Below, piece after piece: positions 2,343-25,849 of a DNA stretch of 64,000 bases. Each line of letters begins with the position of its first letter. The first letter of the stretch is position 1. Both the position numbers and the translations under genes were made by a program. Under the pieces are notes generated by a model. That model searched no databases. It worked only from the letters and a program-made list of their open reading frames with translations, and had not been told where the DNA came from. The DNA comes from Candidatus Aminicenantes bacterium (GTDB taxonomy: Bacteria; Acidobacteriota; Aminicenantia; S016-38): NCBI GenBank assembly GCA_026987025.1, contig JALSNJ010000040.1, positions 16,451 to 80,450 on the forward strand, written 5' to 3'.

Positions 2343-2353
2343 AGCTCGCCTCC

Positions 2354-3478: not shown

Positions 3479-3490
3479 CGTTTTATTTTG

Positions 3491-3506
3491 AGCAAAAAAT
3501 GTGCCA
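3491..3506 (-). promoter_or_regulatory. Sigma-54 (RpoN) -24/-12 promoter for the REC-DUF4388-Roadblock/H-NOX operon
   Basis: The minus strand reads TGGCACattttTTGCT, an 11/11 match to TGGCAC-N5-TTGCW. The GC of the -12 element is 12 nt upstream of the ATG at 3478, which predicts a leaderless transcript. Confidence 0.6.
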
Positions 3507-3561
3507 GAAAATACCCCATTTAAAACTTGATGTTTTCCAGGGGGGTGGTAAAATTTTTTCT

Positions 3562-4467: not shown

Positions 4468-5699
4468 GCGACATCCTCATAGTGGAGGACGACCTGAACT
4501 TTGCGAAGGCGCTGGAGGATTATCTTTCAGCCAGGGGGTTTGAGGTGAAGGTAGTCCTCAACGGGAAAAAGGCCCTGGAAGTTGCCCGCAGCGAAACCCC
4601 TGAGATAGTTCTCCTGGACCTTTTTCTTCCGGATTATAGCGGTCTAGATCTGATACCAGAGCTTTCCTTAACCTCCTCCGTGGTGGTAATAACCGGGGCC
4701 GGGGAGGTGAGACTGGCGGTGGAGGCCATGAGAAGGGGAGCCTACGACTTCCTGGTTAAACCGGTAGATCTGGAGGCCTTAGCCCTGAAACTGGAAAGAT
4801 TTTTTCCGGTCAGGGTCGTGCACGGCTTAATTGGCAATTCCCCTGCCATGAGGAGGGTGGTAGAGGAGGCGAAATTGGCCTCCCGGGGGAGGGCCAGCGT
4901 GCTTATCCTGGGGGAGACAGGGGTGGGAAAGGAGGAGGTGGCCAGGGCAATATACCGTCTCTCAGGCAGAAGGGGAAAGTTCGTGGCGGTAAACGCTTCG
5001 GCCCTTCCTGAGCCCCTTTTTGAGTCGGAGCTTTTCGGCCACAGAAGGGGGGCCTTCACCGGAGCCACCTACGACAAAAAGGGCCTGCTGGAAGAGGCCC
5101 AGGGAGGGGTGTTCTACCTGGACGAAATTACGGAAATGCCCCTTCACCTTCAGGCCAAGCTCCTGAGGGTTCTGGAAACCAGAACTTTGAGAAGGTTGGG
5201 GGAGACCCGGGACAGGGAGGTGGAATTTAAATTTATCGCCTCATCCAATTTGAAAATGGAGGAATTGAAGGAAAGGCTCAGGGAGGACCTCTTTTACAGG
5301 ATTTCCACCTTTATAATTGAAATCCCCCCCCTCAGGGAGAGGAAGGAGGACATAATCCCTCTGGCTAAGCACTTCATAAGGGAATTCGGAAGGGAAAAGG
5401 GAATTTTCGGGATAAGCCCCCCGGCGGAAGAAATTCTCCTGAAGTATTCCTGGCCCGGCAATGTAAGGGAGCTTAGGAACGAGATAGAAAGGGCCTGCTT
5501 AGTGGCCAGCGGAAGGCAACTGGAACCCTCCCATTTCAGCGAGAGGATCAGGGGGGAGCACAGGATTCTTACCCTGGAAGAGATGGAAAGGGAATACATA
5601 AAAAAGGTTCTCCAGATCTGTGGGGGCAACAAAAGCAGGGCCGCTAAGCTTCTGGGAATTTCCCGTCCCACCCTGCGGAAAAAACTGAGCGAGGGCTGA
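4464..5699 (+). CDS. Sigma-54-dependent response regulator (NtrC family: REC + AAA+ sigma-54 activator + Fis-type HTH)
   Basis: 411 aa with a REC domain (VLLDLFLPD), a Walker A (GETGVGKE), ESELFGH, the GAFTGA loop and a C-terminal HTH (RAAKLLGISRPTLRKKL). It overlaps the HK stop by 4 bp. Confidence 0.9.
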   Translation: MSDILIVEDDLNFAKALEDYLSARGFEVKVVLNGKKALEVARSETPEIVLLDLFLPDYSGLDLIPELSLTSSVVVITGAGEVRLAVEAMRRGAYDFLVKPVDLEALALKLERFFPVRVVHGLIGNSPAMRRVVEEAKLASRGRASVLILGETGVGKEEVARAIYRLSGRRGKFVAVNASALPEPLFESELFGHRRGAFTGATYDKKGLLEEAQGGVFYLDEITEMPLHLQAKLLRVLETRTLRRLGETRDREVEFKFIASSNLKMEELKERLREDLFYRISTFIIEIPPLRERKEDIIPLAKHFIREFGREKGIFGISPPAEEILLKYSWPGNVRELRNEIERACLVASGRQLEPSHFSERIRGEHRILTLEEMEREYIKKVLQICGGNKSRAAKLLGISRPTLRKKLSEG

Positions 5700-13389: not shown

Positions 13390-14751
13390 TCAATAGGCAC
13401 CCTCCCTTTCCAGAACTGCCTTTGCGGTTTTTACAAGGATTACAAAATCCAGCCAGAGGGACCAATTTCTTACATAAAATTCGTCCAGGGCCAGCCTCAC
13501 TTCAAAGGGAAGGGTGTTTCTTCCCCTTATTTGCCATAGCCCTGTGATTCCGGGTTTTACCCTGAAGATGATTTTCCTGTAACCTCCCATATCTCCCCTC
13601 TCCTTGGGCAGATAGGGTCTTGGTCCCACCAAAGACATCTCCCCCTTTAAAACATTGAAAAGCTGGGGAAGTTCATCAAGGCTCCATTTCCTCAAGAAGC
13701 GTCCCACCCTGGTAACCCTGGGGTCGTTCTTGAGTTTTTTGTACTTTTCCCACTCCTCCCTTAGCTCAGGATTTTTTCTCAAAAGCCTCTGAAGCACCCT
13801 GTCTGCATCGGCCCTCATGCTGCGGAATTTGAAAATATAGAAGGGCCTTTCCCCCATTCCCAGCCTTCTTTGCCTGTAAATAATGGGACCCTTTGAGTCC
13901 AGCTTAATGGCTATGGCAATGGCAAGAAGCAGCGGGGAGAGGAAAAGCAAAAGCAGGGAGGAAAGAAGAAGGTCCATGGCCCTTTTTATAAGGAGGTTTT
14001 CCTTTTTGTAAAGCTTGTGGTAGGGGGAAAGGGTCATATATATCCCTATATTTTTCAACTTACCGTAGGCCAGGGAGATTTTATGCACTTCCGGTATTAT
14101 GTTTATGCTGGCCATTCCCTCCAGCCTCAGCACTAAGGACCGGAGGGTTGAGGGAGCAAAGCAGGAGGAAAGGATGAAAACTTCCCTTATACCGTCTTCC
14201 CGGATCTTTCTCTCTATCCTGTCAGTATCCTCATAGACCTTCTTAACCCTGTAGCCGGCGTACCATTCCCTTTGAAGCTCCATGGCCAGGTCCCGGGCTT
14301 CCTTTTCCCTGCCCACGATGGCCACAGGCCGGAGACCGATGCCCAGGGAAAATAAAATTTTCTTCAGAATAAACCTCAGGGCTGGAACGGCCACCGCAGT
14401 TAGAAACACGGTGGTGAGGAGCATAACCCGTGAAAGCATGAACTCCTTTTTTCCTATGTATGCAATGGAGAGGGTTAAAAATCCGGAGACTATGTCCGTG
14501 GTCCATATTCCCTTGAGTTCCTCCCAGAATCCCCTGTGCTCGTAAAGCTCCTCCTCCCATCCTACAGCTATCCACAAAAGGATAAAAATAAGCAACAGGG
14601 GTATGTATGTGGAGAGGGGTTCCAGATGAGCTATCCGGAGAGAATTGAAGAACTCCGGAATTATCCTCTCCCTTAAAAAGTAAGAGAAGAAAAACGAAAA
14701 GGAAATGGCCAGGGCATCCCCGGCTAAAAGTAACGCCCAGAAAAATCTCAT
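13390..14751 (-). CDS. Second polyprenyl glycosylphosphotransferase (exopolysaccharide biosynthesis type)
   Basis: RPFYIFKFRSMRADAD...DPRVTRVGRFLRKWSLDELPQLFNVLKGEMSLVGPRP, preceded by a multi-TM N-terminal domain. Confidence 0.85.
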   Translation of the reverse strand: MRFFWALLLAGDALAISFSFFFSYFLRERIIPEFFNSLRIAHLEPLSTYIPLLLIFILLWIAVGWEEELYEHRGFWEELKGIWTTDIVSGFLTLSIAYIGKKEFMLSRVMLLTTVFLTAVAVPALRFILKKILFSLGIGLRPVAIVGREKEARDLAMELQREWYAGYRVKKVYEDTDRIERKIREDGIREVFILSSCFAPSTLRSLVLRLEGMASINIIPEVHKISLAYGKLKNIGIYMTLSPYHKLYKKENLLIKRAMDLLLSSLLLLFLSPLLLAIAIAIKLDSKGPIIYRQRRLGMGERPFYIFKFRSMRADADRVLQRLLRKNPELREEWEKYKKLKNDPRVTRVGRFLRKWSLDELPQLFNVLKGEMSLVGPRPYLPKERGDMGGYRKIIFRVKPGITGLWQIRGRNTLPFEVRLALDEFYVRNWSLWLDFVILVKTAKAVLEREGAY

Positions 14752-14812
14752 CAGAGTATATTATAAGCGATTGTGGGAATATGTGTTAGAATTACCCCTT
14801 GAGGCTGCAAAA

Positions 14813-15481
14813 ATGGATGTAATAACGCTGAGGCTTTACGATACAGGGATTATAAAAAGGGTTGACGCCGCGGGGATTCCCTGCGAAGTGGGGGATTTTT
14901 GTGTTATAGAATCCCCCTACGGGGAGGAACTGGGGGAGGTCCTAAGGGAAAATTCCTCGGTGAAGAGGGCCTGGGAAAAGGTTAAGCTGGAAAGGGTTTT
15001 GAGAAAAGCCTCTGAGAAGGACATAAAGTTCTTTCATGAGAAACTGGAGAGGGAAAGGGAAGCATTCCAGTTTTGCCGAAGGAGGATAGAGGAGCGGGGA
15101 ATGCCCATGAAATTGTTGAGGGTAAAGTTCTTTACCAATGAAAGGAAAGTTATGTTCTTCTTTTCTGCCGAGGGAAGGATAGACTTCCGGGATTTGGTGA
15201 AGGACCTGGCCAAGAAATACCGCATGAGAATTGAGATGAGGCAGGTGGGAATAAGGGACGAGGCCAGGATGTTGGGCGGTGTTGGGGTCTGCGGCAGGTT
15301 TCTCTGCTGTATGTATGTGCTTAAGGAGTTCAAGCCCATTGGCTCAGGGCTCCTGAAGGAAATGGAGGTCAAGGTAAACCCCAATAAAATTTCCGGCCTT
15401 TGCGGCAGGCTCATGTGCTGTCTTTCATATGAGGTTGGGGTTCCCCTTAACCTTTCCGACATGGGGGAAGAGGAGGATTGA
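14813..15481 (+). CDS. PSP1 C-terminal domain protein (RicT/YaaT-like)
   Basis: VITLRLYDTGIIKRVDAAGIPCEVGDFCVIESPYGEELGEVL plus the C-terminal CGRFLCCM / CGRLMCCLSYE cysteine motif. The start is taken at the MDVITL ATG (14813) rather than the upstream ORF start at 14705. Confidence 0.7.
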   Translation: MDVITLRLYDTGIIKRVDAAGIPCEVGDFCVIESPYGEELGEVLRENSSVKRAWEKVKLERVLRKASEKDIKFFHEKLEREREAFQFCRRRIEERGMPMKLLRVKFFTNERKVMFFFSAEGRIDFRDLVKDLAKKYRMRIEMRQVGIRDEARMLGGVGVCGRFLCCMYVLKEFKPIGSGLLKEMEVKVNPNKISGLCGRLMCCLSYEVGVPLNLSDMGEEED

Positions 15482-16473
15482 AAAGCATGAAGGGCTGGTT
15501 CAAATCCCTTCTATCCCTTTCGGTAGCCCTTTTGCTTCTATACATTTTCTTCCGGGGTACTGACCTTAAAGCTTTCTGGGGTTACCTCAAGAAGGCAAGG
15601 TTGGTTTATCTGCTCGGATTCGCCTTAGGGCTCGTGTTTTTTTACTGGCTCAGAGGTTTGAGGTGGAGGCTCCTTTACGATGGAGAAGGTGTACCCGGGA
15701 TAAGGGAATTTTTCATGGCCAATGTGGTGGGTTTTTCGGTGAACTACCTTCTCCCCGGGAGGCTGGGTGAAGTGGCCAGGGCAATTTACATTTCCAGAAA
15801 GAGCGAATTTCCATCCAGTTATTCGGTGGCCACGGTGGTGGTGGAGAGGTTTTTTGATTTCTTCTCCATCGGAGTTCTTCTGGTGTTTTACCTTATGAGC
15901 TTCCCGGTCAGGGCAGCCCGCTTGAAGGGGAATCTATCTGCCATAGTCTGGGTGAGTTTTCTGGCCACCCTTTTATTGGTTCTGGGGATTCTTTTCTTAA
16001 CCTTCCTGTGGAGAAGGGGAAAGCTCCATCGCCTTGAGGTTTTGCTGAGGGTCTTTCCCGCCCATCTCAGGGAAAAGCTTAAAAACAGCGGCCGCTCTTT
16101 CGTGCAGGGCCTCCACTTTTTTTCTTCTCCCCGCAGGGCCTTATATTTCACTTTGCTGGGGTTTTTAGTGTGGCTGGCGGTGGCCCTTCAGTACTGGCTG
16201 GGCCTTAAGGCCTTCGGTATTCACAGGCCCTTTTTTCAGATTATTCCCTTCATCGGAGTGCTTTTGGTGGGGGTTTCCATCCCTACCCCTGGTATGGCGG
16301 GAGGATTTGAGGTTGCTTCCAAGTTTTTTATCGTTGAGATATGGAGGTATTCCCCCAACAAGGCGGTGGCAGCCACCATTACCCTTCATGTTATACTTCT
16401 TTTGGTAACCCTTTCCTTAGGAGCTTTGGTGGGGTTGAAGGAGGGCCTTAAACTGAGAAGGCAGAGCCAATGA
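15478..16473 (+). CDS. UPF0104 / lysylphosphatidylglycerol-synthase-TM-like (flippase-like) membrane protein
   Basis: 331 aa, polytopic, with characteristic N-terminal basic residues and a Trp-rich TM1 ([30 protein letters not shown]). Confidence 0.6.
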
Positions 16474-16937
16474 GGTGTCCTTATTGCGGAGCCAATAAAG
16501 ACCGGGTGGTGGATAGCCGGGAGATAAAGAACGGAACCGAGGTGAGGAGAAGAAGGCAGTGCCTGGTTTGTGGAAGGAGATTCACCACCTATGAAAGAAT
16601 AGAGCTCATTCCGGTGATGGTTATCAAAAAGGACGGCAGCCGGCAGCCCTTTTCCAGGGATAAGATAATAAACGGACTTTTAAAGGCCTGTGAAAAAAGG
16701 CCTGTATCCGCCGAGGAGCTGGAGGCCATAGCCGATGAGCTGGAGACCCTGGCCCAGTCTAAGGGGGAGATTTCCTCCAAGGAGATAGGCGAGGTCATTA
16801 TGGAAAGGCTTAAGTCCCTGGACCAGGTGGCCTATGTGAGATTTGCTTCCGTTTACAAGGAGTTCAGGGACCTGGAAGAATTTTACAGGGAGCTGGAAGT
16901 TCTCAAGGGAGGGAGTTCAAATGAAGGAGAGGATTAA
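16470..16937 (+). CDS. nrdR: Transcriptional repressor NrdR (zinc ribbon + ATP-cone)
   Basis: [42 protein letters not shown]. Confidence 0.9.
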
Positions 16938-17280
16938 GGACCATGTTCAGGCATGGGGCAGCTGGACCCCCCCGGTGGATATCAGGGTGGGGCCGGAAAG
17001 GATCAGAATTTTCGTGGAAGTCCCCGGAGTGGATGCCTCTTCCCTGGAGGTCAGGGTTGAGGGGGATAACCTCATAGTGGAAGGAAGGAAGATGCCCCCG
17101 GCGGTGAAGCGAGTTCTTCACACCGAGAGGGAATATGGGGATTTCTTCTTGGTGATAAAATTAAGCGAGGATGTCATTCCATCCTCGGCCAGGGCCAGTT
17201 TGAAAGCCGGGGTTTTGGAGGTGGAGATTTCCAGAATCAACCGAAGAATAAAAATCCAGGTGGAGGAAGAAAATGAGTGA
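16921..17280 (+). CDS. Hsp20/alpha-crystallin small heat-shock protein
   Basis: [28 protein letters not shown]...[12 protein letters not shown]...AGVLEVEI. The start is taken at MKERIKDH (16921), which follows a GGGAGGG motif. It overlaps the nrdR 3' end. Confidence 0.75.
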
Positions 17281-19618
17281 AAAGGTGGAAGTCCCGGAAA
17301 GAATCCCGGTGCTGGCGGTGAGGGATGTGGTTATCTTCCCTCACATGATAGTTCCGCTTTTCGTCAAAAGGGACAAATCGGTGAAGGCCATAAACGAAAG
17401 TCTATCCACCCACAGGAAGATTTTGCTCCTGACTCAGAAGGACCCGGAAATAGAGGAGCCCGGGCCGGAGGACCTTTTCAGGGTGGGGACCGTTTCCATG
17501 ATTTCCAAGATGATCACCCTTCCCGATGGGACCCTGAGGGTTCTTTTTCAGGGTCTGGCCAGGGCCAGAGTTAAAAAAGTGGAAACTGAGGGGCAATACA
17601 TAGAGGCGGAGATTGAGGTGGTGGAGGAGAGGATTGAGGGGAGGAGCGAGGTAGAGGTGGAAGCCCTCAAAAGGAGCCTGAAGGCTGCCCTTGAGAAAAT
17701 AGTAGAGCTTGGGGGCAAAAACCTGACGCCGGATTTCCTCATGTTTATAGGGCGAATAGAGGACCCAGGTAAGCTGGCGGACCTGATAGTGGCCAATCTC
17801 GGGATAAAGACTGAGGAGGCCCAGCAGGTTCTGGAGATTTTCTATCCGGTGGAGAGGATGAAAAAGGTTCTGGAAATTTTGGAAAGGGAAATACAGCTCC
17901 TCCAGGTGCAGAAGGAAATAATGGAGGATACGAAAAAGCGTATGGATAAGATGCAGAGGGAGTTTTTCCTTCGCCAGCAGCTTCAGTCAATACAGAAGGA
18001 GCTGGGTATAGGCTCTGAGCTTGCTGAGGAGATAAAGGAATACAGGGAGAAGCTGGCGAAAATAAAGAAGATGAGCCCTGAGGCCAAGGAGGAGGTGGAA
18101 AAGCAAATATCCCGCCTGGAAAAGCTTCCCCCTGACAGCGCCGAGGCAGGGGTGATAAGAACCTATCTTGACTGGATGCTCTCCCTCCCTTGGGACAGGT
18201 CCACCAAGGACAACCTGGACATAAAGAGGGCAAAGAGAATACTTGACGAGGACCATTATAACCTGGAGAAGGTTAAGGAAAGGATCCTTGAATACCTCAG
18301 CGTCAGGAAGCTTGCTAAGAAAATGAAGGGGCCCATCCTCTGTTTCGTAGGGCCTCCGGGGGTAGGTAAAACCTCCCTGGGAAAGTCCATAGCCCGGGCC
18401 CTGGGAAGAAAATTCGTAAGGGTCTCCTTAGGAGGGGTTAGAGACGAAGCCGAAATAAGGGGGCATCGCAGGACATATGTGGGGGCCCTTCCGGGCAGGA
18501 TAATTCAGGGAATCCGCCAGGCCGGTTCCAACAATCCGGTTTTTATGCTGGACGAGGTGGATAAAATAGGGGCCGACTTTCGGGGAGACCCTTCCTCTGC
18601 CCTCTTAGAGGTCCTGGACCCTGAGCAAAACCACTCCTTCGTGGACCACTACCTGGGGGTTCCCTTTGACCTATCCAAGGTTCTGTTTATAGCCACAGCC
18701 AATGTTACCCATACCATACATCCGGCCTTCCTTGACAGGATGGAGGTCATATACCTTCCCGGTTATACTGAAGAGGAGAAACTGCACATAGCCAGGAAAT
18801 TTCTTATACCCAAGCAGATGAAGGAAAACGGTATAAAGCTGGGTATGCTTCAGATAAGCGACGATGCCGTCAGGAAAATAATCTCCGAATACACCAGGGA
18901 GGCCGGCGTCAGGAACTTAGAGAGGCAGATTGCGGCTGTTATGAGGAAGGTGGCCCGGAGATGGGCCGAAGGCAAGAGGAAAAAAGTGAGGGTTACCGCC
19001 AGAAACCTTCACAGATTCCTGGGTCCCCCCTTGGGTTTCAGGGACGAGGCCCTGCCTGAACCTAAGGTGGGGGTGGCCACCGGGGTGGCCTGGACTCCCA
19101 CCGGGGGCGAGCTTCTTTTCGTAGAATCCATAAAAATGCCGGGAAAGGGGGATATAAAACTTACCGGTTCGCTGGGAGATGTGTTGAAAGAGTCAGCCAT
19201 GGCGGCCATGAGCTACATAAAGGCCAACGCCGAAAGGTTCGGCATAGATCCCGAAGAATTTACCAAAAGCGATGTCCACATCCATATACCCCAGGGGGCC
19301 ATTCCCAAGGACGGACCCTCCGCCGGGGTGGCCATCGTGGCTTCCTTGGTTTCCCTGTTCACCTCCAGGCCGGTGCGAAACGATGTGGCCATGACCGGAG
19401 AAATCACCCTGAGGGGAAGTGTTCTTCCCATTGGAGGGCTGAAGGAAAAGATATTGGCGGCCAAGAGAAGCAAAATACACACCTTCATATTGCCCTCAAA
19501 GAACATGAAGGATGTGGAGGACCTTCCCAAATATGTAAAGGAGAAGATGAAGCTGATCCCCGTGGAAACCGTGGAGGAGGTTTTAAAGGTAGTTCTTCTT
19601 GATGAGAAGCGAGGATGA
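17273..19618 (+). CDS. lon: ATP-dependent protease Lon (LonA)
   Basis: 781 aa with a Lon N-terminal domain, an AAA+ module (GPPGVGKTS) and a proteolytic domain with the catalytic Ser in DGPSAG. Confidence 0.95.
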   Translation: MSEKVEVPERIPVLAVRDVVIFPHMIVPLFVKRDKSVKAINESLSTHRKILLLTQKDPEIEEPGPEDLFRVGTVSMISKMITLPDGTLRVLFQGLARARVKKVETEGQYIEAEIEVVEERIEGRSEVEVEALKRSLKAALEKIVELGGKNLTPDFLMFIGRIEDPGKLADLIVANLGIKTEEAQQVLEIFYPVERMKKVLEILEREIQLLQVQKEIMEDTKKRMDKMQREFFLRQQLQSIQKELGIGSELAEEIKEYREKLAKIKKMSPEAKEEVEKQISRLEKLPPDSAEAGVIRTYLDWMLSLPWDRSTKDNLDIKRAKRILDEDHYNLEKVKERILEYLSVRKLAKKMKGPILCFVGPPGVGKTSLGKSIARALGRKFVRVSLGGVRDEAEIRGHRRTYVGALPGRIIQGIRQAGSNNPVFMLDEVDKIGADFRGDPSSALLEVLDPEQNHSFVDHYLGVPFDLSKVLFIATANVTHTIHPAFLDRMEVIYLPGYTEEEKLHIARKFLIPKQMKENGIKLGMLQISDDAVRKIISEYTREAGVRNLERQIAAVMRKVARRWAEGKRKKVRVTARNLHRFLGPPLGFRDEALPEPKVGVATGVAWTPTGGELLFVESIKMPGKGDIKLTGSLGDVLKESAMAAMSYIKANAERFGIDPEEFTKSDVHIHIPQGAIPKDGPSAGVAIVASLVSLFTSRPVRNDVAMTGEITLRGSVLPIGGLKEKILAAKRSKIHTFILPSKNMKDVEDLPKYVKEKMKLIPVETVEEVLKVVLLDEKRG

Positions 19619-20495
19619 AATAATAGAACTCCTTAGAAGAAGATTTCCGCCCGGCAAGGTCCAGGTGGGGATCGGGGACGATGCGGCGGTATTCGGGGAT
19701 TTGGTTTTTACCTCCGACATGCTGGTGGAGGGAACCCATTTTCTTAGGGAACACCCTCCCTTTTTCTTAGGAAGGAAGTCGGTTAATGTGAACCTCAGCG
19801 ACCTGGCAGCCATGGGGGCAGAGCCCCTTTTTATATTGATGGACCTTGCCCTTCCCCGAAGGCTTACCTCCTCCTGGCTGGACGAGTTCCTGAATGGGGT
19901 GGAATCTGCTTGCTGCGAGGCCGGATGCAGCTTAGTGGGAGGGGACATCTCCTCTTCGGAGAGCCTCTTCGTATCGGTTGCTGCCGTGGGAAGGGCTGAA
20001 GCTCCGGTTTTAAGGGGGAAGGCAAGGAAGGGGGAGGGGATTTACCTCGTGGGGGACCTCGGCCTTTCCAGGGCCGGAAGGGAGGCCATAGAGGAAAAAT
20101 TGGAGGGGTTTCAGACTTTAAAGAGGGCCTTCTGGGACCCAAAGCCCAGGCTGGAGGAAGGCAAGCGGGTAGCGAAGTTCGCCTCTTCCATGATAGATGT
20201 GAGCGATGGTTTCGTCCTGGACCTTAAAAAATTGCTTCAGGATAAGGGGGCCCTTTTGTTCGCAGAAAAATTCCCTATCCACCCGGAGCTTAGAGAATAT
20301 TGCAGGCTCAAAGGCTCTTCCCCCTTGGATTATGTCCTTTACGGGGGAGAGGACTACGCGCTGGTTTATACCGCAGAAAGGGGAGTGGGACCAGGGGTTA
20401 TGGTTGGGAAGGTTACCGGAGATGGAGTTATAAGACTGGATGGAAAGGTCCTCTCCGTCAAGGGATTTTCCCATTTTATGGAAAACTCCGGTTAA
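19599..20495 (+). CDS. thiL: Thiamine-monophosphate kinase
   Basis: IGDDAAV...DMLVEGTHF and an AIR-synthase-related fold. Confidence 0.8.
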   Translation: MMRSEDEIIELLRRRFPPGKVQVGIGDDAAVFGDLVFTSDMLVEGTHFLREHPPFFLGRKSVNVNLSDLAAMGAEPLFILMDLALPRRLTSSWLDEFLNGVESACCEAGCSLVGGDISSSESLFVSVAAVGRAEAPVLRGKARKGEGIYLVGDLGLSRAGREAIEEKLEGFQTLKRAFWDPKPRLEEGKRVAKFASSMIDVSDGFVLDLKKLLQDKGALLFAEKFPIHPELREYCRLKGSSPLDYVLYGGEDYALVYTAERGVGPGVMVGKVTGDGVIRLDGKVLSVKGFSHFMENSG

Positions 20496-20548
20496 AGTTC
20501 TAAAATATAAGAGGAAGTTTTATCTTTTAATTTTTTTAGGAGGAGAAA

Positions 20549-22009
20549 ATGAGGCGTTTTTGGGGTTTGTGGTTTATCCTCCTGTGGGTTAATCTGGCCT
20601 TTCCAAGGATTTTGAACTACCCCCGGGGCCAGGATATCGTGCATCTGGATCCCGCAGCCCAATGGAACAACTACACTTCGGAGGTCCTGGCCAATGTTTA
20701 CGAGGGACTGGTGGAGTTCAAGGGTGAGAGGTACAAAGTTTCTCCTCTGCTGGCAGAGAGATGGGAGATGATGGAAGGGGGGAGGGTCTGGAGATTTTAC
20801 CTTAGGCGGGGGATAAGGTTTCATGATGGGAGTCCCTTCAACGCCGATAGCGTGGTATTTACCTTCAAAAGGCAGAAGGGGACTTCCTTTGAAGCTAAGA
20901 GATCTTTAATGCCCTTTCTTAAAGATGTAAGGAAGGTGGACGACTACACGGTGGACTTCGAGCTTGCGGTGCCCTGCGTACTTTTTCCTTACATACTGGC
21001 CAATCCCTTTGCCTACATAGTGAAGCCTTATAAGGATAAGTTTCTCCCCATAGGGACAGGACCCTTCAAGGTGGAGAGCTGGGTGAGGGGAAAATTTGTT
21101 CTTTTGAAGGCCAACCGGTTCTACTGGAGAGGAAGACCCCGTATAGAAGGGGTAAGGTTTTATGTGGTCAGGAACCCTTACCTCAGGGTTTTACAGCTCA
21201 GAAACGGCAATGCCGATGTGCTGAGCAGACTTTCCAGGAAGGAATACGAGGACCTCAAGAACGACCCTAGGATAGACATCCTCAAATTTCCGGTGCTGGA
21301 CCTTAATTACATAACCTTTAATGTGAAGAAACCCCCCTTTAACGACATAAGGGTGAGGAAGGCCATAACATATCTGATAAACAGGGAAAGGCTGGTAAGG
21401 GTGGTTTTTGGAGACCTGGCGGAGCCCGTAACCCTACCCCTTCCCCCATCCCTTCTGGATAAAAAGGACTACATGGAGGTTCCGAAATATGACCCTGAGG
21501 CGGCCAGGAAACTGCTGCGGGAAGCAGGCTATAAAAATGGGCTGAAGTGCACCTTGTATTACCTGGTGGGCAGTCCTTACGGAGATGTGGCCAATGCCCT
21601 GTCCAGGTCCCTGTTGGAAGCAGGGGTTATAATTAAGCCCGTAGCTTTGCCCTACAAGGTTCTGACGAGGAGGGTGATAAAAGGGGACTTTGAAATGGCC
21701 ATAGGTGGTTGGGTGGCGGATTATCCCGAGGCCGGGAATTTTCTCTATTCCATTATGTTCCCCTTATCCCCCAGGGTAACTTACATGTCCTTACCGCAGG
21801 CCAAGGAATTGCTTTTAAGGGCCAGAGGGACCTTGGACGAGGAAAAGAGGAGGGAACTTTACGCCCAGGTGGTTAAGATTATTTTGAAAAACTATCTAAC
21901 AATACCCCTTTATCGCTCCTACCTCCTGGTGGCATACAGGAAAGGTATTAAAGGGATAGAAATAAATCCCAAGGGTTATTTAATTTTTTACAAGGTTAGG
22001 GTGAAATGA
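20549..22009 (+). CDS. Family-5 (peptide/nickel-type) periplasmic solute-binding protein, signal peptide present
   Basis: 486 aa. The SBP_bac_5 signature is WRFYLRRGIRFHDGSPFNADSVVFTF, preceded by an N-terminal signal sequence (MRRFWGLWFILLWVNLAFP). Confidence 0.8.
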   Translation: MRRFWGLWFILLWVNLAFPRILNYPRGQDIVHLDPAAQWNNYTSEVLANVYEGLVEFKGERYKVSPLLAERWEMMEGGRVWRFYLRRGIRFHDGSPFNADSVVFTFKRQKGTSFEAKRSLMPFLKDVRKVDDYTVDFELAVPCVLFPYILANPFAYIVKPYKDKFLPIGTGPFKVESWVRGKFVLLKANRFYWRGRPRIEGVRFYVVRNPYLRVLQLRNGNADVLSRLSRKEYEDLKNDPRIDILKFPVLDLNYITFNVKKPPFNDIRVRKAITYLINRERLVRVVFGDLAEPVTLPLPPSLLDKKDYMEVPKYDPEAARKLLREAGYKNGLKCTLYYLVGSPYGDVANALSRSLLEAGVIIKPVALPYKVLTRRVIKGDFEMAIGGWVADYPEAGNFLYSIMFPLSPRVTYMSLPQAKELLLRARGTLDEEKRRELYAQVVKIILKNYLTIPLYRSYLLVAYRKGIKGIEINPKGYLIFYKVRVK

Positions 22010-23454
22010 GGGGATTTATTCTTTTTCTAACGCTCGCAGGGAGCCTTCTGGGAAAAACCCTTTACTTCGGCGTGAGGGGGGAACCAGTATCCCTTGACCC
22101 CGCGGCCCAATGGGAGGATGTATCCTCCATGGTGGTTTCCAATATTTTTGAGACCCTGGTGGAGGTAAAGCCCGGTAGCTTAGAGATAATGCCTAAATTG
22201 GCCGTCAGGTGGGAAAGGTCTAAAGATGGGAAGAAATGGGTTTTTTACCTAAGGCCCGGGGTGAAGTTCAGCAACGGCCAGCCCCTTACCTCCAGGGAGG
22301 TGGTTTACAGCTTCAAGAGGCTTCTAAAAATGCCCCCCGGAAGGTTTCTTTTTCCCTACATAAAGGAGATCAAGGCCCTGGGGAAGAACAGGGTGGTCTT
22401 CCTTCTTAAGAGGGAATTTTCTCCTTTCCTCCATCTGCTCACGGTGACCCAGGCCTCGGTAATTTACCCATCCAGAGGAGAATTAGGGTTTTTGGGAACA
22501 GGGCCCTATTATGTGAGCCTCTGGCAGAAGGGCAAGAGGATGGTGCTCAAGAGAAACCCCTTTTACTGGGGGAGGATGGGGAACATAGACAAGGTGGTTA
22601 TGCTCTTTTCCCTTTCCATGGATTCTATCTATTCTCTCCTTCTCAGGGATAAGCTGGACCTTACCAACGGCATATCCATGTCCAGGGTGGAGGCCCTTCG
22701 CAATTCAGGAAGGTTTTACCTTTTGTCTTCTCCGGTCCTTTCCTTAGAATACCTCGTTTTTAACCCTGAGGACCCGTGGGCAAAGAAGGGTTTCGTCAGG
22801 GAGGCCCTTTCCTACATATGGAACAGCCGCTGGGTCAGACTTTCCTTCGGCAACTACAGGGAACCCGCCTGCAGGATAATTCCCTTTTCTTCCAGGAGAT
22901 GCCCCTTCGGATATCAGCCCCGGAAAGCCAGGGCTCTGCTCAGAAAAAACAAAGTCTTCGGGAGAGTGAAGTTGAGCCTGGTATACCCTGACGATGCCCT
23001 CTACGCTAAACTCCTGCTTCCCTTTGTCAACGAGGCCAAGAAAATAGGGATAAACATCAAATTGGTGCCGGTGAGGAGCGGGAGGGAATTGGATGAGATT
23101 TATCGCCGGAGAAAATATTCACTCTCCCTTTTTACCTGGATCTGGGATTATCCGGAACCCTACAATATACTTTCCTTTTTGCTTTCAGGCGAGAAGGTCC
23201 TGACCAGCTATCCCACCATATCATCCTTTCAGGGAGTTAAACTCCTCAGGAATACCCTGGAGGAGGCTCTGTCCATGGACACCTCCCGGCAGAGAAGGGC
23301 CGTTTACGAAAGGGTGGAGGGGGAAATTCTCAGAAAAAGGTGGATTATACCGGTATCGTATCTTAAGGTTTCCCTTTTTGTGAATAGAAGGATAAAGGGG
23401 ATTAAGGTTGATCCCACCGGCCTCGTCAGATTAGGGGAGATCTTCAAGGAATGA
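22006..23454 (+). CDS. Second family-5 solute-binding protein paralog
   Basis: 482 aa with WVFYLRPGVKFSNGQPLTSREVVYSF and a signal peptide. Its 4-bp overlaps with both neighbours are consistent with a single operon. Confidence 0.75.
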   Translation: MRGFILFLTLAGSLLGKTLYFGVRGEPVSLDPAAQWEDVSSMVVSNIFETLVEVKPGSLEIMPKLAVRWERSKDGKKWVFYLRPGVKFSNGQPLTSREVVYSFKRLLKMPPGRFLFPYIKEIKALGKNRVVFLLKREFSPFLHLLTVTQASVIYPSRGELGFLGTGPYYVSLWQKGKRMVLKRNPFYWGRMGNIDKVVMLFSLSMDSIYSLLLRDKLDLTNGISMSRVEALRNSGRFYLLSSPVLSLEYLVFNPEDPWAKKGFVREALSYIWNSRWVRLSFGNYREPACRIIPFSSRRCPFGYQPRKARALLRKNKVFGRVKLSLVYPDDALYAKLLLPFVNEAKKIGINIKLVPVRSGRELDEIYRRRKYSLSLFTWIWDYPEPYNILSFLLSGEKVLTSYPTISSFQGVKLLRNTLEEALSMDTSRQRRAVYERVEGEILRKRWIIPVSYLKVSLFVNRRIKGIKVDPTGLVRLGEIFKE

Positions 23455-25538
23455 AGATCAAATTAAAGCTGATATTGTTTTCTCTGTTCATCATATTTCT
23501 TTCCCTTTCCTTCATCACCGGTTTATTTGTGTTCAAGCTCAGAAGCAGCTTAAAAAAGACAGAAATAGAACACCTTTCAGTTTCCCTGCGAAGGGCCGAA
23601 AGTCTCTTTTACGATTACCTTGCCCAGCTAAACAGAATAGCCACCTTTCTCTCTGAGACGAAGGAAATTTCCGACAATATTGAGAATCCTGAGGTCATGG
23701 GGATTTACCTTCAGCAAAAGGATCTTCTTTTTCCCTCTGGCTCAGTAATAATTTTCAACGAAAGGGGAGATCGTCTTCTTTCCTACAGGGCGGATTCTTC
23801 TCCATGTCCCTTTGAGATTAAGCCCTATTTGAAGTCCAGCCAGGGAATCCTAAGGTTGAGCGGGGTAAAGGAGATGGGGAAGAGCCTTTGCTTTATTTCC
23901 TTGGCACCCATTGTTAATCCCAATTCCTTAGAAGTTAAAGGGTATCTGCTCATAGAAAGGCACATAGATTCCGACTTCGCCGATTACCTGAAGGAAAGGG
24001 TAAGGGAGGAGATCTTCCTTTTTGACAGGACGGGAGATTTCCTGGGGTCTACCTATATTGGAAAGGAGGGAGACAGGATTTTCCCCTCCAGAATGAAAAG
24101 GGAAAGCTGGGGTTGGGTGGGTTACATTGAAGGGCGACCGTATTTTCTAAAGGAAACGCTCATAAGGTGCATGGACGGAAGTGCATGCGGGAAAATTTTA
24201 ATAGGGAAGGAAGAGACGAGAATGGTGGCCCTTCTAAAAAGCTCCGTAAACTATGCCCTCATCGCTTTTTTAGTGGACTTCGCCTTTGCCTTCCTTCTTA
24301 CGATTTTGCTGGGAAATCACTTTACGAAGCCCATAGGACTTCTCTCCGAGGCCGGGCAAAGATGGGCTAAGGGGGCCCTGGATTACAGGTTAAACCTTCA
24401 GAGGAGGGACGAATTCGGCCATCTGGCCAGCGTCTTCAACTACATGGCAGAAGAAATAAAGGTAAAACACGAAGAGCTCCGCAGGACCAAGGCCTTTTAT
24501 CAGACCATAATAGACAGCAACCCGGTGGGGGTGATTGCCTGTGAACCCTCCGGCAGGGTGGTGAGCCTCAACAGGGCCGCCCAAAGGATCTTTTCCGGGA
24601 ACCTGAAGGAGGGGGAAAACCTTTTTGCGATAAAGGGGCTTGAGGGGATAAGGGAAAAATTTACCAGGGCCCTTCTGGAAGGAAAGGCTCAGGAAGCCTT
24701 CGGGGTGGAGGCTGAGGTTCCTGCAAGGAAAATGGTTTTGAAGCTTCTCATGTATCCCGTTCAAAGGGAGGAGGAGCTACTGCTCATAGTTCAGGCCGAG
24801 GATATTACCCGGAAAAGGGAGATGGAGCAAGAACTTTATCACCTGAGGAAGCAGGCTCTTTTAGGAACCCGACTTAGCTCCTACGCCCACGATATAAACA
24901 ACTATTTAACCACCATATTGGGATACCTTGAAATAATGGATTTAAAGGTGGCGGACCCCTCCCTGAAGGAGGAACTTCAACGGGTAAAGAAAACCACCAG
25001 AGCAGCGGCTAAACTTTCCAGGTCCATTCTTGACTTTTCCAAGGAAAAAATGAAGAAGGAGGTGGTGAACCTCAACGATGTGGTGGAGTCCACCCTGGAT
25101 TTCGTAAAAAGGCTTCTTCCCCGAAAAATAGAAATAGAATTCAATAAGGAAGGAGATGGATTCAGAGTCCTGGGGGATCCCAGTAAAATTTCCGTGGGCC
25201 TTTACAATCTTCTTATTAACTCCATAGATGCCATCATGGCTTCGGGAAAGGAAAGGGGAAAAATAAAGGTTAAGGTTGGGGCCGAGTTCGATCCCAGCTC
25301 AGGAGAACATGTGGCCAAATTGGTGGTGGAGGACAACGGCACAGGGATAAGGCAGGAGAACCTGGATAAAATCTTTGAGCCCTATTTCACCACCAAAGGA
25401 AGCGAGGGAACGGGCCTTGGACTTTACATGGTAAGAAATATGGTGGAGGAGATGGGAGGAAAGATAACGGTGGAAAGCAAGCCTGGAGAATGGGCAAGGT
25501 TTACCCTTATGTTCCCCCTGTGGAGGGGAAGGGGCTAA
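23451..25538 (+). CDS. Membrane sensor histidine kinase (periplasmic sensor domain, HAMP, PAS, HisKA, HATPase_c)
   Basis: 695 aa. TM1 is at residues ~5-27, a periplasmic region of ~230 aa follows, and TM2 is at ~262-285. Then come a HAMP domain (HLASVFNYMAEEIK), a PAS domain, an H-box (SYAHDINNYLTTILGYLEI) and G-boxes (DNGTGI / GTGLGL). Confidence 0.85.
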   Translation: MKIKLKLILFSLFIIFLSLSFITGLFVFKLRSSLKKTEIEHLSVSLRRAESLFYDYLAQLNRIATFLSETKEISDNIENPEVMGIYLQQKDLLFPSGSVIIFNERGDRLLSYRADSSPCPFEIKPYLKSSQGILRLSGVKEMGKSLCFISLAPIVNPNSLEVKGYLLIERHIDSDFADYLKERVREEIFLFDRTGDFLGSTYIGKEGDRIFPSRMKRESWGWVGYIEGRPYFLKETLIRCMDGSACGKILIGKEETRMVALLKSSVNYALIAFLVDFAFAFLLTILLGNHFTKPIGLLSEAGQRWAKGALDYRLNLQRRDEFGHLASVFNYMAEEIKVKHEELRRTKAFYQTIIDSNPVGVIACEPSGRVVSLNRAAQRIFSGNLKEGENLFAIKGLEGIREKFTRALLEGKAQEAFGVEAEVPARKMVLKLLMYPVQREEELLLIVQAEDITRKREMEQELYHLRKQALLGTRLSSYAHDINNYLTTILGYLEIMDLKVADPSLKEELQRVKKTTRAAAKLSRSILDFSKEKMKKEVVNLNDVVESTLDFVKRLLPRKIEIEFNKEGDGFRVLGDPSKISVGLYNLLINSIDAIMASGKERGKIKVKVGAEFDPSSGEHVAKLVVEDNGTGIRQENLDKIFEPYFTTKGSEGTGLGLYMVRNMVEEMGGKITVESKPGEWARFTLMFPLWRGRG

Positions 25539-25849
25539 CCGGTGCAGCTTTCCTCAAGCCATTTAAGGTACGCCTCGCTCCCCTGGCTTATGGGAATCGC
25601 CACGATCTGCGGAACCTCGTAAGGGTGGTTTTCCTTTAAAAAAGCCTCAACCTCAGAATATAGACTCTGCTTCGTTTTTATTAGGCAGAGAAATTCCCCG
25701 CTTTTTTCCACCCTTCCTTTCCATCGGTATATGCTGGTGATGGGGCCCAGGATTTGCACGCAGGCGGCCAATCTCCTTTCCACAAGCGCAGCACCGATTT
25801 TTTCCCCATCCTCCCTTTTCTCCAGGGTGGTGAGAACTATTACAAACAT
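25535..25849 (-). CDS. cutA: Divalent-cation tolerance protein CutA
   Basis: 104 aa with a CutA1 fold consensus (VIVLTTLEKREDGEKIGAALVERRLAACVQI...PYEVP). Confidence 0.8.
   Translation of the reverse strand: MFVIVLTTLEKREDGEKIGAALVERRLAACVQILGPITSIYRWKGRVEKSGEFLCLIKTKQSLYSEVEAFLKENHPYEVPQIVAIPISQGSEAYLKWLEESCTG

What the first reader, a model, noticed from the sequence alone, without database searches (positions are those of the whole stretch)
20549..25538. Operon of two family-5 solute-binding proteins followed by a HAMP-PAS histidine kinase, with no permease or ATPase genes
Seen in sequence: two paralogous SBP_bac_5 proteins with signal peptides are translationally coupled by 4-bp overlaps, both to each other and to a 695-aa membrane HK with a ~230-aa periplasmic domain. 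No ABC permease, ATPase or response regulator is adjacent; the next gene is convergent cutA.

Established knowledge: orphan SBPs can act as co-sensors for HKs, as in LuxP/LuxQ, TorT/TorS, ChvE/VirA and BctC. Family-5 (peptide/nickel/oligosaccharide) SBPs are not the usual partners.

Inference: a periplasmic ligand-capture signalling system using two SBPs with possibly different ligands. The ligand and the cognate regulator are unknown.
Basis: partly seen in the sequence, partly recalled or inferred. Interest (0 to 1): 0.6.

Follow-up and report, generated by a model that had tools for sequence, protein, structure and literature searches.

The report
Twin binding proteins coupled to kinase
Two periplasmic "transporter-type" binding proteins with no transporter are encoded in a deeply conserved three-gene unit with a membrane sensor kinase, so they most likely act as its ligand-capturing antennae, a new variant of a known signalling design.

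Summary
Three ORFs (20549-22009, 22006-23454, 23451-25538) encode two paralogous SBP_bac_5 proteins and a 695-aa kinase (TM, ~236-aa periplasmic domain, TM, HAMP, PAS, HisKA, HATPase_c). Both junctions overlap by 4 bp. No ABC permease or ATPase lies anywhere in the 64-kb window, and the nearest receiver domains are about 15-18 kb away. The organism is an uncultured Candidatus Aminicenantes bacterium.

Overlaps are common in this genome, so they prove little alone. The comparative evidence is strong, though. The kinase's sensor domain defines a tiny family: 29 hits among 1.84 billion representatives. In every relative with usable upstream DNA, an SBP2-type gene sits directly before the kinase, nearly always with an ATGA overlap. 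This holds at about 30% protein identity, 28-67% GC and at least six different flanking contexts, never with a permease. SBP1-type copies vary from 0 to 2. Some relatives carry a fused or adjacent receiver.

The modelled sensor domain (pLDDT 85) best matches the LuxQ periplasmic domain, which docks LuxP.

Best reading: a dedicated, transporter-independent, SBP-dependent sensor kinase that works like LuxPQ or CBP-ChiS. Ligand and regulator are unknown. It is a new variant of a known kind.

The parts
20496..20548 (+). AT-rich 53-bp gap between thiL and SBP1. It is the only intergenic gap between lon and the kinase. It holds a weak sigma-70-like match (20479-20506) and a strong AGGAGGAG ribosome-binding site (about 20538-20545). 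Possible module promoter.
   Evidence: Promoter-like matches in the region are not more frequent than in shuffles (15 against 10.5 +/- 3.5), so the promoter is only a suggestion.
20549..22009 (+). SBP1 (486 aa): a family-5 solute-binding protein of the accessory 'a' type. It has an N-terminal signal-peptide-like segment, the family-5 signature region WRFYLRRGIRFHDG at residue 81, and Asp391, which aligns with DppA Asp408.
   Evidence: Pfam SBP_bac_5 9e-87. The nearest solved relatives are 5u4o, DppA and HbpA/AibA, at E 1e-53 to 1e-60. All NCBIfam equivalogs score far below cut-off. Purifying selection: dN/dS 0.05-0.15, with dS saturated.
22006..23454 (+). SBP2 (482 aa): a diverged family-5 solute-binding protein of the core 'b' type, which always sits directly upstream of the kinase. 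It has a signal-peptide-like N-terminus and Asp381, which aligns with DppA Asp408.
   Evidence: Pfam SBP_bac_5 4e-60. Only 8 orthologous clusters were found, then identity drops to 32% or less. The 'b' clade is monophyletic in the tree. The ATGA overlap with the kinase is conserved across the family. dN/dS is 0.11-0.18.
23451..25538 (+). Sensor histidine kinase (695 aa), non-hybrid. All catalytic motifs are intact: His480 in AHDINN, N box at 584, G1 at 628, F at 642 and G2 at 653.
   Evidence: Only six full-length orthologous clusters were found among 5.8 billion proteins.
23469..23537 (+). Kinase transmembrane helix 1 (about residues 7-29).
   Evidence: Hydropathy scan.
23541..24248 (+). Kinase periplasmic sensor domain (about residues 31-266). 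It has a double PAS/Cache-like fold, closest to the LuxQ periplasmic domain, and is not covered by any Pfam family above threshold.
   Evidence: AF2 model with pLDDT 85.4 and pTM 0.80. Foldseek top hits are LuxQ entries 3c38, 2hje, 2hj9 and 1zhh, with TM 0.58-0.69. A profile search found 29 hits among 1.84 billion representatives. Pfam CHASE4 and dCache_1 matches are below cut-off.
24249..24320 (+). Kinase transmembrane helix 2 (about residues 267-290).
   Evidence: Hydropathy scan.
24309..24458 (+). HAMP domain (residues 287-336).
   Evidence: Pfam PF00672, 9.6e-10.
24492..24815 (+). Cytoplasmic PAS domain (about residues 348-455). Pfam matches only its N-terminal part.
   Evidence: Pfam PAS 9e-5 and PAS_8 2e-4. 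Stronger PAS hits occur in orthologues.
24873..25043 (+). HisKA dimerisation/phosphoacceptor domain. The phospho-accepting His480 codon is at 24888.
   Evidence: Pfam PF00512, 1.7e-7. Motif position.
25176..25520 (+). HATPase_c catalytic domain (residues 576-690).
   Evidence: Pfam PF02518, 2.6e-23.

Best explanation
This is a dedicated, transporter-independent, SBP-dependent two-component sensor.

**Proposed mechanism**
- SBP2, the kinase-proximal 'b' type, is exported to the periplasm. It docks on the LuxQ-like double-PAS/Cache periplasmic domain of the kinase dimer.
- Ligand-induced closure of the SBP changes the sensor-domain arrangement. The change passes through TM2, HAMP and the cytoplasmic PAS domain and switches the HisKA/HATPase core between kinase and phosphatase states.
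- SBP1, the 'a' type and an ancient paralogue, is an accessory second antenna. It either adds a second ligand specificity or partners with SBP2.
- Output goes to a receiver domain. That receiver is fused or adjacent in some relatives but is encoded elsewhere in this genome.

**Shown here**
- The gene anatomy, and the absence of transporter genes in the window and in the flanks held for related loci.
- Family-wide conservation of the SBP2-type/kinase pair and of its start/stop overlap.
- Co-divergence of the two SBP lineages with the kinase.
- A LuxQ-like fold in the model of the sensor domain.
- Intact catalytic motifs and purifying selection on all three genes.

**Inferred**
- Physical SBP-kinase binding.
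- The direction of regulation.
- The division of labour between the two SBPs.
- The ligand. It may be a peptide-like compound bearing an amine, because both SBPs are DppA-like and keep the Asp that binds the peptide N-terminus in DppA. This guess has low confidence.
For: **1. Conservation of the module**
- All close orthologues (55-82% kinase identity) keep thiL-SBP-SBP-HK.
- A more distant branch was recovered from metagenomes, with the kinase about 30% identical. In 26 loci a tblastn-detectable SBP_bac_5 gene lies directly upstream of the kinase. A 27th locus (L109) holds the SBP and only the start of the kinase.
- In 17 of those loci an SBP1-type gene lies just before the SBP2-type gene.
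- The SBP2-to-kinase junction is ATGA (-4) in all of these loci; L076, a more divergent relative (37% kinase identity), has -11. The SBP1-to-SBP2 junction is mostly -4 or -1.

**2. The flanks differ while the module stays**
- thiL | trio | cutA-era: window and L005.
- thiL | trio | era: L002 and L003.
- thiL | trio | hslVU: L076.
- thiL | trio | hypothetical gene and polyprenyl synthase: L112.
- NMO | trio | LPG synthase-lon-thiL: L098 and relatives.
- ispF | trio | mscS: L114.
- lysS | SBP-HK-SBP-SBP | glycosyltransferase: L113.
- SBP-HK-REC | purA: L105.
- GC content ranges from 28% to 67%.

**3. No transporter**
No Dpp/Opp-type permease or ABC ATPase was found in 410 kb of module loci plus the window. 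The only hits were the positive controls, which include an unrelated ABC-2 exporter in L114.

**4. Phylogeny**
The 'a' and 'b' SBPs are each monophyletic and are sister clades. Their internal topologies mirror each other. The single SBP of L105 is of the 'b' type.

**5. Sensor fold**
The best PDB matches are LuxQ periplasmic domains, including chains crystallised with LuxP (TMq 0.58-0.63, TMt 0.66-0.69). Ligand-binding dCache chemoreceptors score about 0.48.

**6. Receiver domains in relatives**
L076 and L112, and by their length (836-850 aa) P0241 and P0243, are hybrid kinases with a receiver. L105 has a stand-alone receiver directly downstream.

**7. Precedent**
CBP-ChiS pairs an SBP_bac_5 protein with a 'dCache-like, not annotated' kinase sensor. 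SBPs that stimulate kinases tend to be encoded next to signalling genes (PMC8050422). CBP-ChiS interaction is supported by a co-localisation assay (bioRxiv 10.1101/2020.01.10.902320).

**8. A related case in another phylum**
The closest non-module relative of SBP2, in a KSB1 genome, also sits next to a kinase, an NtrC-type regulator and a receiver, with no permease in the flanks held.
Against: - No interaction data exist, and nothing here tests binding.
- Adjacent sbp and kinase genes were shown experimentally not to interact in P. aeruginosa (AgtS/AgtB/PA0602 and AruS/PA4985; PMC11113362).
- The LuxQ resemblance concerns only the kinase side. LuxP belongs to a different SBP family (Peripla_BP_4; PMC8050422), so the interface cannot be homologous.
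- dCache-like domains usually bind small ligands directly, and that remains possible here.
- Only the 64-kb window and up to 10 kb of flank per related locus were inspected. An Opp/Dpp permease set elsewhere in the genome could still use these SBPs. Orphan family-5 SBPs that borrow a distant permease are known, such as MppA (my own knowledge; PMC8050422 lists mppA without an adjacent transporter gene).
- No cognate regulator was identified.
- The AF2 model of SBP2 was too poor (pLDDT 49) to inspect its pocket.
- The Asp408 equivalent is missing in the distant 'a' clade and in one 'b' orthologue. The ligand guess is therefore weak.
Confidence: 0.62

Rival explanations
1. The SBPs are ordinary uptake proteins that deliver substrate to an Opp/Dpp-type ABC permease encoded elsewhere. 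The kinase either senses the same substrate directly with its Cache-like domain or merely regulates and co-expresses the SBP genes. In this reading the SBPs do not signal through the kinase.
For: - Both SBPs are DppA/HbpA/GsiB-like by sequence.
- Orphan family-5 SBPs that use a distant permease exist, such as MppA (my own knowledge; PMC8050422 lists mppA without an adjacent transporter gene).
- dCache-like domains commonly bind ligands directly; the second tier of fold hits are ligand-bound chemoreceptors.
- Neighbouring sbp and kinase genes were shown not to interact in P. aeruginosa.
- Only part of the genome could be inspected.
Against: - No permease or ATPase was found in any of about 40 module loci with diverse flanks.
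- The start/stop overlap between the SBP2 type and the kinase is conserved at about 30% identity. That argues for stoichiometric co-production, which a transporter SBP produced in excess would not need.
- SBP2 is a long-branch, lineage-restricted clade that co-diverges with the kinase.
- The sensor fold is closest to LuxQ, a domain that works through an SBP.
Confidence: 0.2
2. Dual-function system like CBP-ChiS: the SBPs both feed a distant ABC importer and control the kinase, which regulates the uptake and catabolic genes.
For: - The CBP-ChiS and GltB-GtrS precedents are marked 'transporter and signalling' in PMC8050422 Table 1.
- The DppA-like sequence is compatible with transport.
Against: - In the precedents the SBP gene heads or adjoins the transporter operon. 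Here it never does.
- Whole genomes could not be examined.
Confidence: 0.12
3. Fortuitous adjacency in a compact genome: three unrelated genes packed into a long co-directional cluster whose overlaps carry no functional meaning.
For: - 13 of 20 neighbouring same-strand junctions overlap in this genome.
- The upstream genes nrdR, hsp20, lon and thiL are functionally unrelated yet also overlap.
Against: - The trio persists while its flanks change completely, across 28-67% GC and about 30% identity.
- The sensor-domain family has only 29 members among 1.84 billion representatives. Every member whose context could be read has the SBP partner.
Confidence: 0.02
4. Metal (nickel/cobalt) sensing: the SBPs are NikA-like metallophore binders, linked to the neighbouring cutA and corC genes.
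For: - The top NCBIfam hits for SBP2 are nickel-SBP models (98 and 94 bits).
- cutA and corC lie just downstream in the window.
Against: - These scores are far below the cut-offs of 600 and 393, and the DppA model scores comparably.
- cutA is absent in the 82%-identical orthologous locus, and the downstream genes differ entirely in other lineages.
Confidence: 0.04

Closest known systems
CBP-ChiS of Vibrio cholerae (chitin oligosaccharide-binding protein plus hybrid sensor kinase)
   Same: - A family-5 (SBP_bac_5) periplasmic binding protein controls a membrane histidine kinase.
- The kinase's periplasmic domain is 'dCache-like, not annotated' (PMC8050422 Table 1).
- The SBP stays bound and modulates the kinase/phosphatase balance.
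   Different: - cbp is associated with both transporter and signalling genes (PMC8050422 Table 1), and the chb operon it induces is required for chitobiose uptake. ChiS is a hybrid kinase that also binds DNA itself.
- Here there are two paralogous SBPs, no transporter in any locus, a non-hybrid kinase with HAMP and PAS, and no detectable specific sequence relationship to ChiS. That relationship was not tested directly, because AFDB was unavailable.
LuxP-LuxQ of Vibrio (AI-2 receptor)
   Same: - The periplasmic sensor domain has its best structural match in LuxQp, with TM up to 0.69.
- The SBP gene lies next to the signalling gene without a transporter (luxP is marked 'SPa' in PMC8050422).
- The architecture is collinear: periplasmic double PAS, cytoplasmic PAS, HisKA and HATPase. 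The receiver found in LuxQ is also present in hybrid members of this family.
   Different: - LuxP is a Peripla_BP_4 protein, not family 5.
- There is one SBP, not two.
- This kinase has a HAMP domain and, in this genome, no receiver.
- The NCBIfam LuxQ model scores 90.6 bits against a cut-off of 1200.
- Sequence identity in the sensor domain is 12-14%.
DppA/OppA-type ABC importers (E. coli DppABCDF)
   Same: - The SBPs are DppA-like by sequence: 1dpp at E 4e-56 for SBP1 and 2e-24 for SBP2.
- The Asp that binds the peptide N-terminus (DppA D408) is kept.
   Different: - No permease or ATPase genes are linked in any locus.
- Scores are far below the equivalog cut-offs (169 against 1005 for DppA).
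- The DppA Arg355 position is Ser in SBP1.
- Both proteins are about 20 residues shorter than mature DppA (507 residues in 1dpp) once their signal peptides are removed.
DppA-Tap and AibA/AibB-TlpB (family-5 SBPs signalling to chemoreceptors)
   Same: - Family-5 SBPs are used as indirect ligand sensors.
- AibA/AibB is a precedent for two SBPs feeding one receptor (PMC8050422).
- AibA (6ofq) is among the best solved relatives of both SBPs.
   Different: - The receivers there are chemoreceptors, not kinases.
- Those SBP genes lie with transporters.
- AibA and AibB belong to different families, whereas the two SBPs here are paralogues.

Membership tests
Dpp/Opp/Nik-type SBP-dependent ABC importer | The binding protein belongs to SBP family 5 (PF00496). 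| tested here: met
   Pfam 9e-87 for SBP1 and 4e-60 for SBP2.
Dpp/Opp/Nik-type SBP-dependent ABC importer | Two BPD_transp_1 permease genes and one or two ABC_tran ATPase genes lie in the same operon or locus. | tested here: not met
   None in the 64-kb window. None in 410 kb of module loci. The rest of the genome was not searched.
Dpp/Opp/Nik-type SBP-dependent ABC importer | The SBP reaches a curated equivalog cut-off (DppA, OppA, NikA, GsiB or SapA). | tested here: not met
   Best scores are 171 bits against 594 (GsiB) and 169 against 1005 (DppA) for SBP1, and 98 against 600 for SBP2.
LuxPQ autoinducer-2 receptor | The kinase periplasmic domain has the LuxQp tandem-PAS fold. | tested here: met
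   The Foldseek top hits are 3c38, 2hje, 2hj9 and 1zhh, with TMt 0.66-0.69 and E about 1e-7, on a model with pLDDT 85. This is fold resemblance only, at 12-14% identity.
LuxPQ autoinducer-2 receptor | The partner is LuxP, a Peripla_BP_4 protein that binds AI-2. | tested here: not met
   Both partners are SBP_bac_5 proteins.
LuxPQ autoinducer-2 receptor | The kinase is a LuxQ equivalog, a hybrid kinase with a receiver that feeds LuxU/LuxO. | tested here: not met
   NCBIfam LuxQ_Vibrio scores 90.6 bits against a cut-off of 1200. The window kinase has no receiver domain. Some relatives are hybrids.
CBP-ChiS chitin sensor | A family-5 SBP acts as co-sensor of a kinase with an unannotated dCache-like periplasmic domain. 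| tested here: met
   The feature is as listed in PMC8050422 Table 1. The co-sensing function itself is inferred, not tested.
CBP-ChiS chitin sensor | The SBP gene is part of, or adjoins, the cognate ABC transporter (chb) operon. | tested here: not met
   No transporter genes were found in any module locus.
CBP-ChiS chitin sensor | The hybrid kinase has a C-terminal DNA-binding output, and the ligand is (GlcNAc)n. | not testable with these tools
   The window kinase ends right after HATPase_c, so a ChiS-like output domain is absent. The ligand cannot be determined computationally here.
SBP-dependent sensor kinases (general functional class) | The ligand-loaded SBP physically binds the kinase sensor domain and changes its activity. 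| not testable with these tools
   Only indirect support exists: conserved gene pairing and overlap, co-divergence and the LuxQ-like fold.
Functional class-I histidine kinase (HisKA/HATPase_c) | The H box with phospho-acceptor His and the N, G1, F and G2 boxes are all present. | tested here: met
   His480 (AHDINN), N box at 584, DNGTGI at 628, FEPYFTTK at 642 and GTGLGL at 653. Pfam HisKA and HATPase_c are above cut-off.

The most novel reading that the evidence does not exclude
The module defines a previously unrecognised receptor family. A Pfam-unannotated, LuxQ-like sensor domain is specialised to dock cluster-C (family-5) binding proteins. An obligate SBP2-type partner is produced 1:1 with the kinase, and exchangeable SBP1-type antennae (0-2 copies) add ligand specificities. 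The result would be a transporter-free, combinatorial periplasmic receptor complex. The KSB1 locus (SBP_bac_5, kinase, NtrC-type regulator) hints that transporter-free family-5 SBP sensing is broader than this family.
Probability: 0.3. Interest if true: 0.65.

Novelty: new variant of a known kind. Interest (0 to 1): 0.5.

Why it matters
- **Few cases are known.** SBP-dependent kinases are thought to be under-recognised, and the review PMC8050422 compiles relatively few documented systems.
- **The case is unusually clean.** The kinase family is tiny, and each member whose context could be read is welded to a family-5 SBP and never to a transporter. In transport-linked systems such as CBP-ChiS, signalling and uptake are hard to separate. 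Here they are already separated.
- **It offers a design to study.** The paired, anciently duplicated SBPs give a natural system for asking how one kinase integrates two periplasmic binding proteins.
- **It provides an annotation rule.** An "ABC transporter substrate-binding protein" next to this sensor domain is probably a signalling protein.
- **It gives a handle on what uncultured Aminicenantes sense.** These bacteria are abundant in sediments and hot springs (my own knowledge).

Tried and rejected
- **Sensor-domain profile search.** The search for homologous proteins with the sensor-domain alignment returned nothing, not even the self proteins. The exhaustive HMMER search replaced it.
- **First metagenome scan.** It was repeated with three closer sequences.
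- **AF2 model of SBP2.** With an 8-sequence alignment the model reached only pLDDT 49. It was unusable, so no pocket analysis or fold search was done.
- **Search for the cognate regulator.** The fused or adjacent receiver domains of relatives were used as queries. They gave only weak hits (E about 1e-4) to the two receivers already known in the window, so no candidate emerged.
- **Promoter and terminator scan.** Matches were not enriched over shuffles. The site upstream of SBP1 is only suggestive.
- **Link to cutA/corC and metal sensing.** Rejected because those neighbours are not conserved.
- **Translational coupling in this genome as evidence.** Rejected as weak because overlaps are the norm here.
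- **dN/dS.** dS is saturated (above 1), so the ratios show purifying selection only qualitatively.
- **Taxon names for distant family members.** None were recorded.

Full report
**1. Observation**

The three ORFs are exactly as reported: 20549-22009 (486 aa), 22006-23454 (482 aa) and 23451-25538 (695 aa). Both junctions are ATGA overlaps.

Pfam assigns SBP_bac_5 to the first two, at 9e-87 and 4e-60. The third has HAMP, PAS, HisKA and HATPase_c. Its N-terminal part gives only sub-threshold CHASE4 and dCache_1 matches.

The two binding proteins are paralogues, 32% identical with E 2e-55. The kinase has two hydrophobic segments at about residues 7-29 and 267-290. These enclose a periplasmic domain of about 236 residues. 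All catalytic boxes are intact, with His480 as the phospho-acceptor.

cutA (25535-25849, minus strand) is convergent. Pfam annotation of essentially all sizeable genes in the 64 kb shows no ABC permease or ATPase, and tblastn agrees. The only receiver domains are far upstream:
- an RR-DUF4388 protein at 2354-3478;
- an NtrC-type regulator at 4464-5699, which is itself coupled to a small cytoplasmic kinase at 3499-4467.

The source is an uncultured Candidatus Aminicenantes bacterium. The 70%-identical orthologue lies in MAG JAMOUJ01. The window corresponds to positions about 27750-91749 of a 300-kb metagenomic contig. LPS-core genes in the window and a lipid A deacylase gene fit a diderm cell with a periplasm.

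**2.

Translational coupling is not distinctive in this genome. In the 22 kb around the trio, 13 of 20 same-strand junctions overlap, and six are exactly -4. The trio is also the tail of a long co-directional run: PSP1, LPG synthase, nrdR, hsp20, lon, thiL. Taken alone, the overlaps would be weak evidence.

**3. Comparative evidence**

*How rare the components are.* The kinase has only six full-length orthologous clusters among 5.8 billion proteins. SBP2 has eight, after which identity drops to 32% or less. An exhaustive profile search with the sensor domain against 1.84 billion representatives found 29 proteins at E <= 1e-3. Most are kinases of about 700 aa, and a few are hybrids of 836-850 aa.

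*What surrounds every readable member.*
- Close orthologues keep thiL-SBP-SBP-HK.
- L076 (37% kinase identity) keeps the trio with a hybrid kinase-receiver and different downstream genes, hslVU.
- L112 is another hybrid member with different downstream genes.
- A metagenome scan seeded with the distant branch gave 30 loci. In 26 of them an SBP_bac_5 gene is detectable directly upstream of the kinase. A 27th locus (L109) holds the SBP and only the first residues of the kinase. The other three have at most 210 nt of upstream sequence.
- In 17 of these loci an SBP1-type gene immediately precedes the SBP2-type gene.
- In that branch the trio sits between a nitronate monooxygenase gene and LPG synthase-lon-thiL. 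That is a different position relative to the same neighbours.
- L114 has ispF | SBP-SBP-HK | mscS.
- L113 has lysS | SBP-HK-SBP-SBP | a glycosyltransferase.
- L105 has a single SBP, the kinase, a stand-alone receiver and then purA.

*Range and junctions.* GC content ranges from 28% to 67%, and kinase identity to the window falls to 27-32%. Even so, the SBP2-to-kinase junction is ATGA in all of these loci; L076, with 37% kinase identity, has -11. The SBP1-to-SBP2 junction is -4 or -1 in most. No Dpp-type permease or ABC ATPase occurs in 410 kb of these loci, apart from the positive controls.

*Phylogeny.* A neighbour-joining tree places all kinase-proximal SBPs in one clade ('b', SBP2-type, including the lone SBP of L105). 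All others fall in a sister clade ('a', SBP1-type). The two clades have mirrored internal topology (no bootstrap was run). In L113 the upstream SBP is 'b' and the two downstream SBPs are 'a'.

The core unit is therefore SBP2-type plus kinase, and SBP1-type antennae vary from 0 to 2. All three window genes are under purifying selection, with dN/dS of 0.05-0.18 and dS saturated.

**4. The sensor domain**

An AF2 model of residues 30-267 was confident (pLDDT 85.4, pTM 0.80). It shows a long N-terminal helix followed by two alpha/beta modules.

The best Foldseek PDB matches are LuxQ periplasmic domains: 3c38, 2hje, and the 2hj9 and 1zhh chains crystallised with LuxP. Their scores are TMq 0.58-0.63, TMt 0.66-0.69 and E about 1e-7. 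Ligand-binding dCache chemoreceptors (PctA, CtaA, Mlp37) follow at TM of about 0.48.

LuxQp works by docking an SBP. The resemblance concerns fold only, at 12-14% identity, and LuxP belongs to another SBP family. This is an analogy in design, not evidence of family membership.

**5. The binding proteins**

Both are DppA/HbpA/GsiB-like by sequence but fall far below every curated equivalog cut-off. The Asp that binds the peptide N-terminus in DppA (D408) is retained in SBP1 (D391), in SBP2 (D381) and in nearly all 'b' proteins. It is absent from the distant 'a' clade. DppA Arg355 aligns with Ser in SBP1.

A peptide-like or amine-bearing ligand is a reasonable guess but a weak one. The AF2 model of SBP2 was unusable, at pLDDT 49.

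**6. Mechanism proposed**

SBP2 is produced in fixed ratio with the kinase and docks on its LuxQ-like periplasmic domain. Ligand-induced closure is relayed through TM2, HAMP and PAS to the HisKA/HATPase core. SBP1 provides a second input.

Output goes through a receiver domain. The receiver is fused in L076 and L112, and by their length in P0241 and P0243. It is adjacent in L105 and unlinked here. The HisKA region resembles AtoS, NtrB and ZraS-type kinases. In the KSB1 analogue the partner is an NtrC-type regulator. A sigma-54 activator is therefore a plausible partner but an untested one.

**7. Comparison with known systems**

SBP-dependent kinases are established. The review PMC8050422 lists LuxPQ, TorTS, ChvE-VirA, BctCE, AioXS and GltB-GtrS. 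For family 5 specifically it lists CBP-ChiS, DppA-Tap and AibA-TlpB. It also notes that SBPs acting on kinases tend to be encoded beside signalling genes. CBP stays bound to ChiS and shifts its kinase/phosphatase balance.

What is new here:
- a dedicated module with no transporter in any locus examined;
- two anciently duplicated family-5 paralogues;
- a Pfam-unannotated sensor-domain family that appears devoted to this partnership.

A sober counter-example is P. aeruginosa, where adjacent sbp and kinase genes did not interact in vitro (PMC11113362).

**8. Verdict**

Direct interaction, the ligands and the regulator remain to be shown. I classify the module as a new variant of a known kind. 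Interest is moderate at 0.5.

My confidence that the SBP2-type protein and the kinase are functionally linked is high, about 0.85-0.9. Confidence in the specific docking mechanism is about 0.6.

Noticed in passing
L110 6001-11531 (candidate division KSB1 MAG GCA_016931935.1): The closest non-module relative of SBP2 (P0129) is also not in an ABC operon. The order is SBP_bac_5, a 486-aa kinase (faint sCache_3_2, HAMP, HisKA, HATPase_c), an NtrC-type sigma-54 regulator and a stand-alone receiver. Family-5 SBP/kinase pairing with no permease nearby may therefore occur in a second phylum with a different sensor domain.
   Followed up: partly
window 1818-5699: This looks like a haem-NO/oxygen signalling cluster. 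An H-NOX protein (1818-2342, minus strand) and an RR-DUF4388 protein (2354-3478, minus strand) are divergent from a small cytoplasmic HisKA kinase (3499-4467, plus strand). That kinase overlaps an NtrC-type sigma-54 regulator (4464-5699, plus strand) by 4 bp. These are the only receiver domains in the window.
   Followed up: partly
window 23805-23807, 23889-23891, 24168-24170, 24186-24188 (kinase residues C119, C147, C240, C246): The periplasmic domain has cysteines that are invariant across the window clade. C119 and C147 are also kept in L076, while C240 and C246 are lost there. They may form periplasmic disulfides. They are not conserved in the wider family.
   Followed up: no
L113 5464-12315 (JGI Ga0248667_100090, 28% GC): A variant module has three family-5 SBP genes around the kinase: one 'b'-type gene upstream that overlaps the kinase, and two 'a'-type genes downstream. 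This shows that the accessory SBP has expanded.
   Followed up: partly
L105 998-5093; L076 4998-7517; L112 7001-9553: The output differs within the family. L105 has a stand-alone 122-aa receiver 5 bp after the kinase. L076 and L112 have a receiver fused to the kinase (839 and 850 aa). The window lineage has neither.
   Followed up: partly
window 58863-61022 (minus strand): A Peptidase_S46 (DPP7/DPP11-type dipeptidyl-peptidase, E 2e-209) is encoded about 33 kb downstream. It would generate dipeptides and fits a proteolytic lifestyle, but no link to the module was established.
   Followed up: no
window 25535-25538: The stop codons of the kinase (plus strand) and cutA (minus strand) overlap by 4 bp in a tail-to-tail arrangement. 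No room is left for an intrinsic terminator between the convergent genes. cutA is absent at this position in the 82%-identical orthologous loci L002 and L003.
   Followed up: partly
window 14705-20495 and L098, L112: The genes LPG_synthase_TM, nrdR, hsp20, lon and thiL stay near the SBP-SBP-HK module in several deeply diverged lineages, although the module's position relative to them changes. It is unclear whether this reflects lineage synteny or a functional tie to proteostasis.
   Followed up: no
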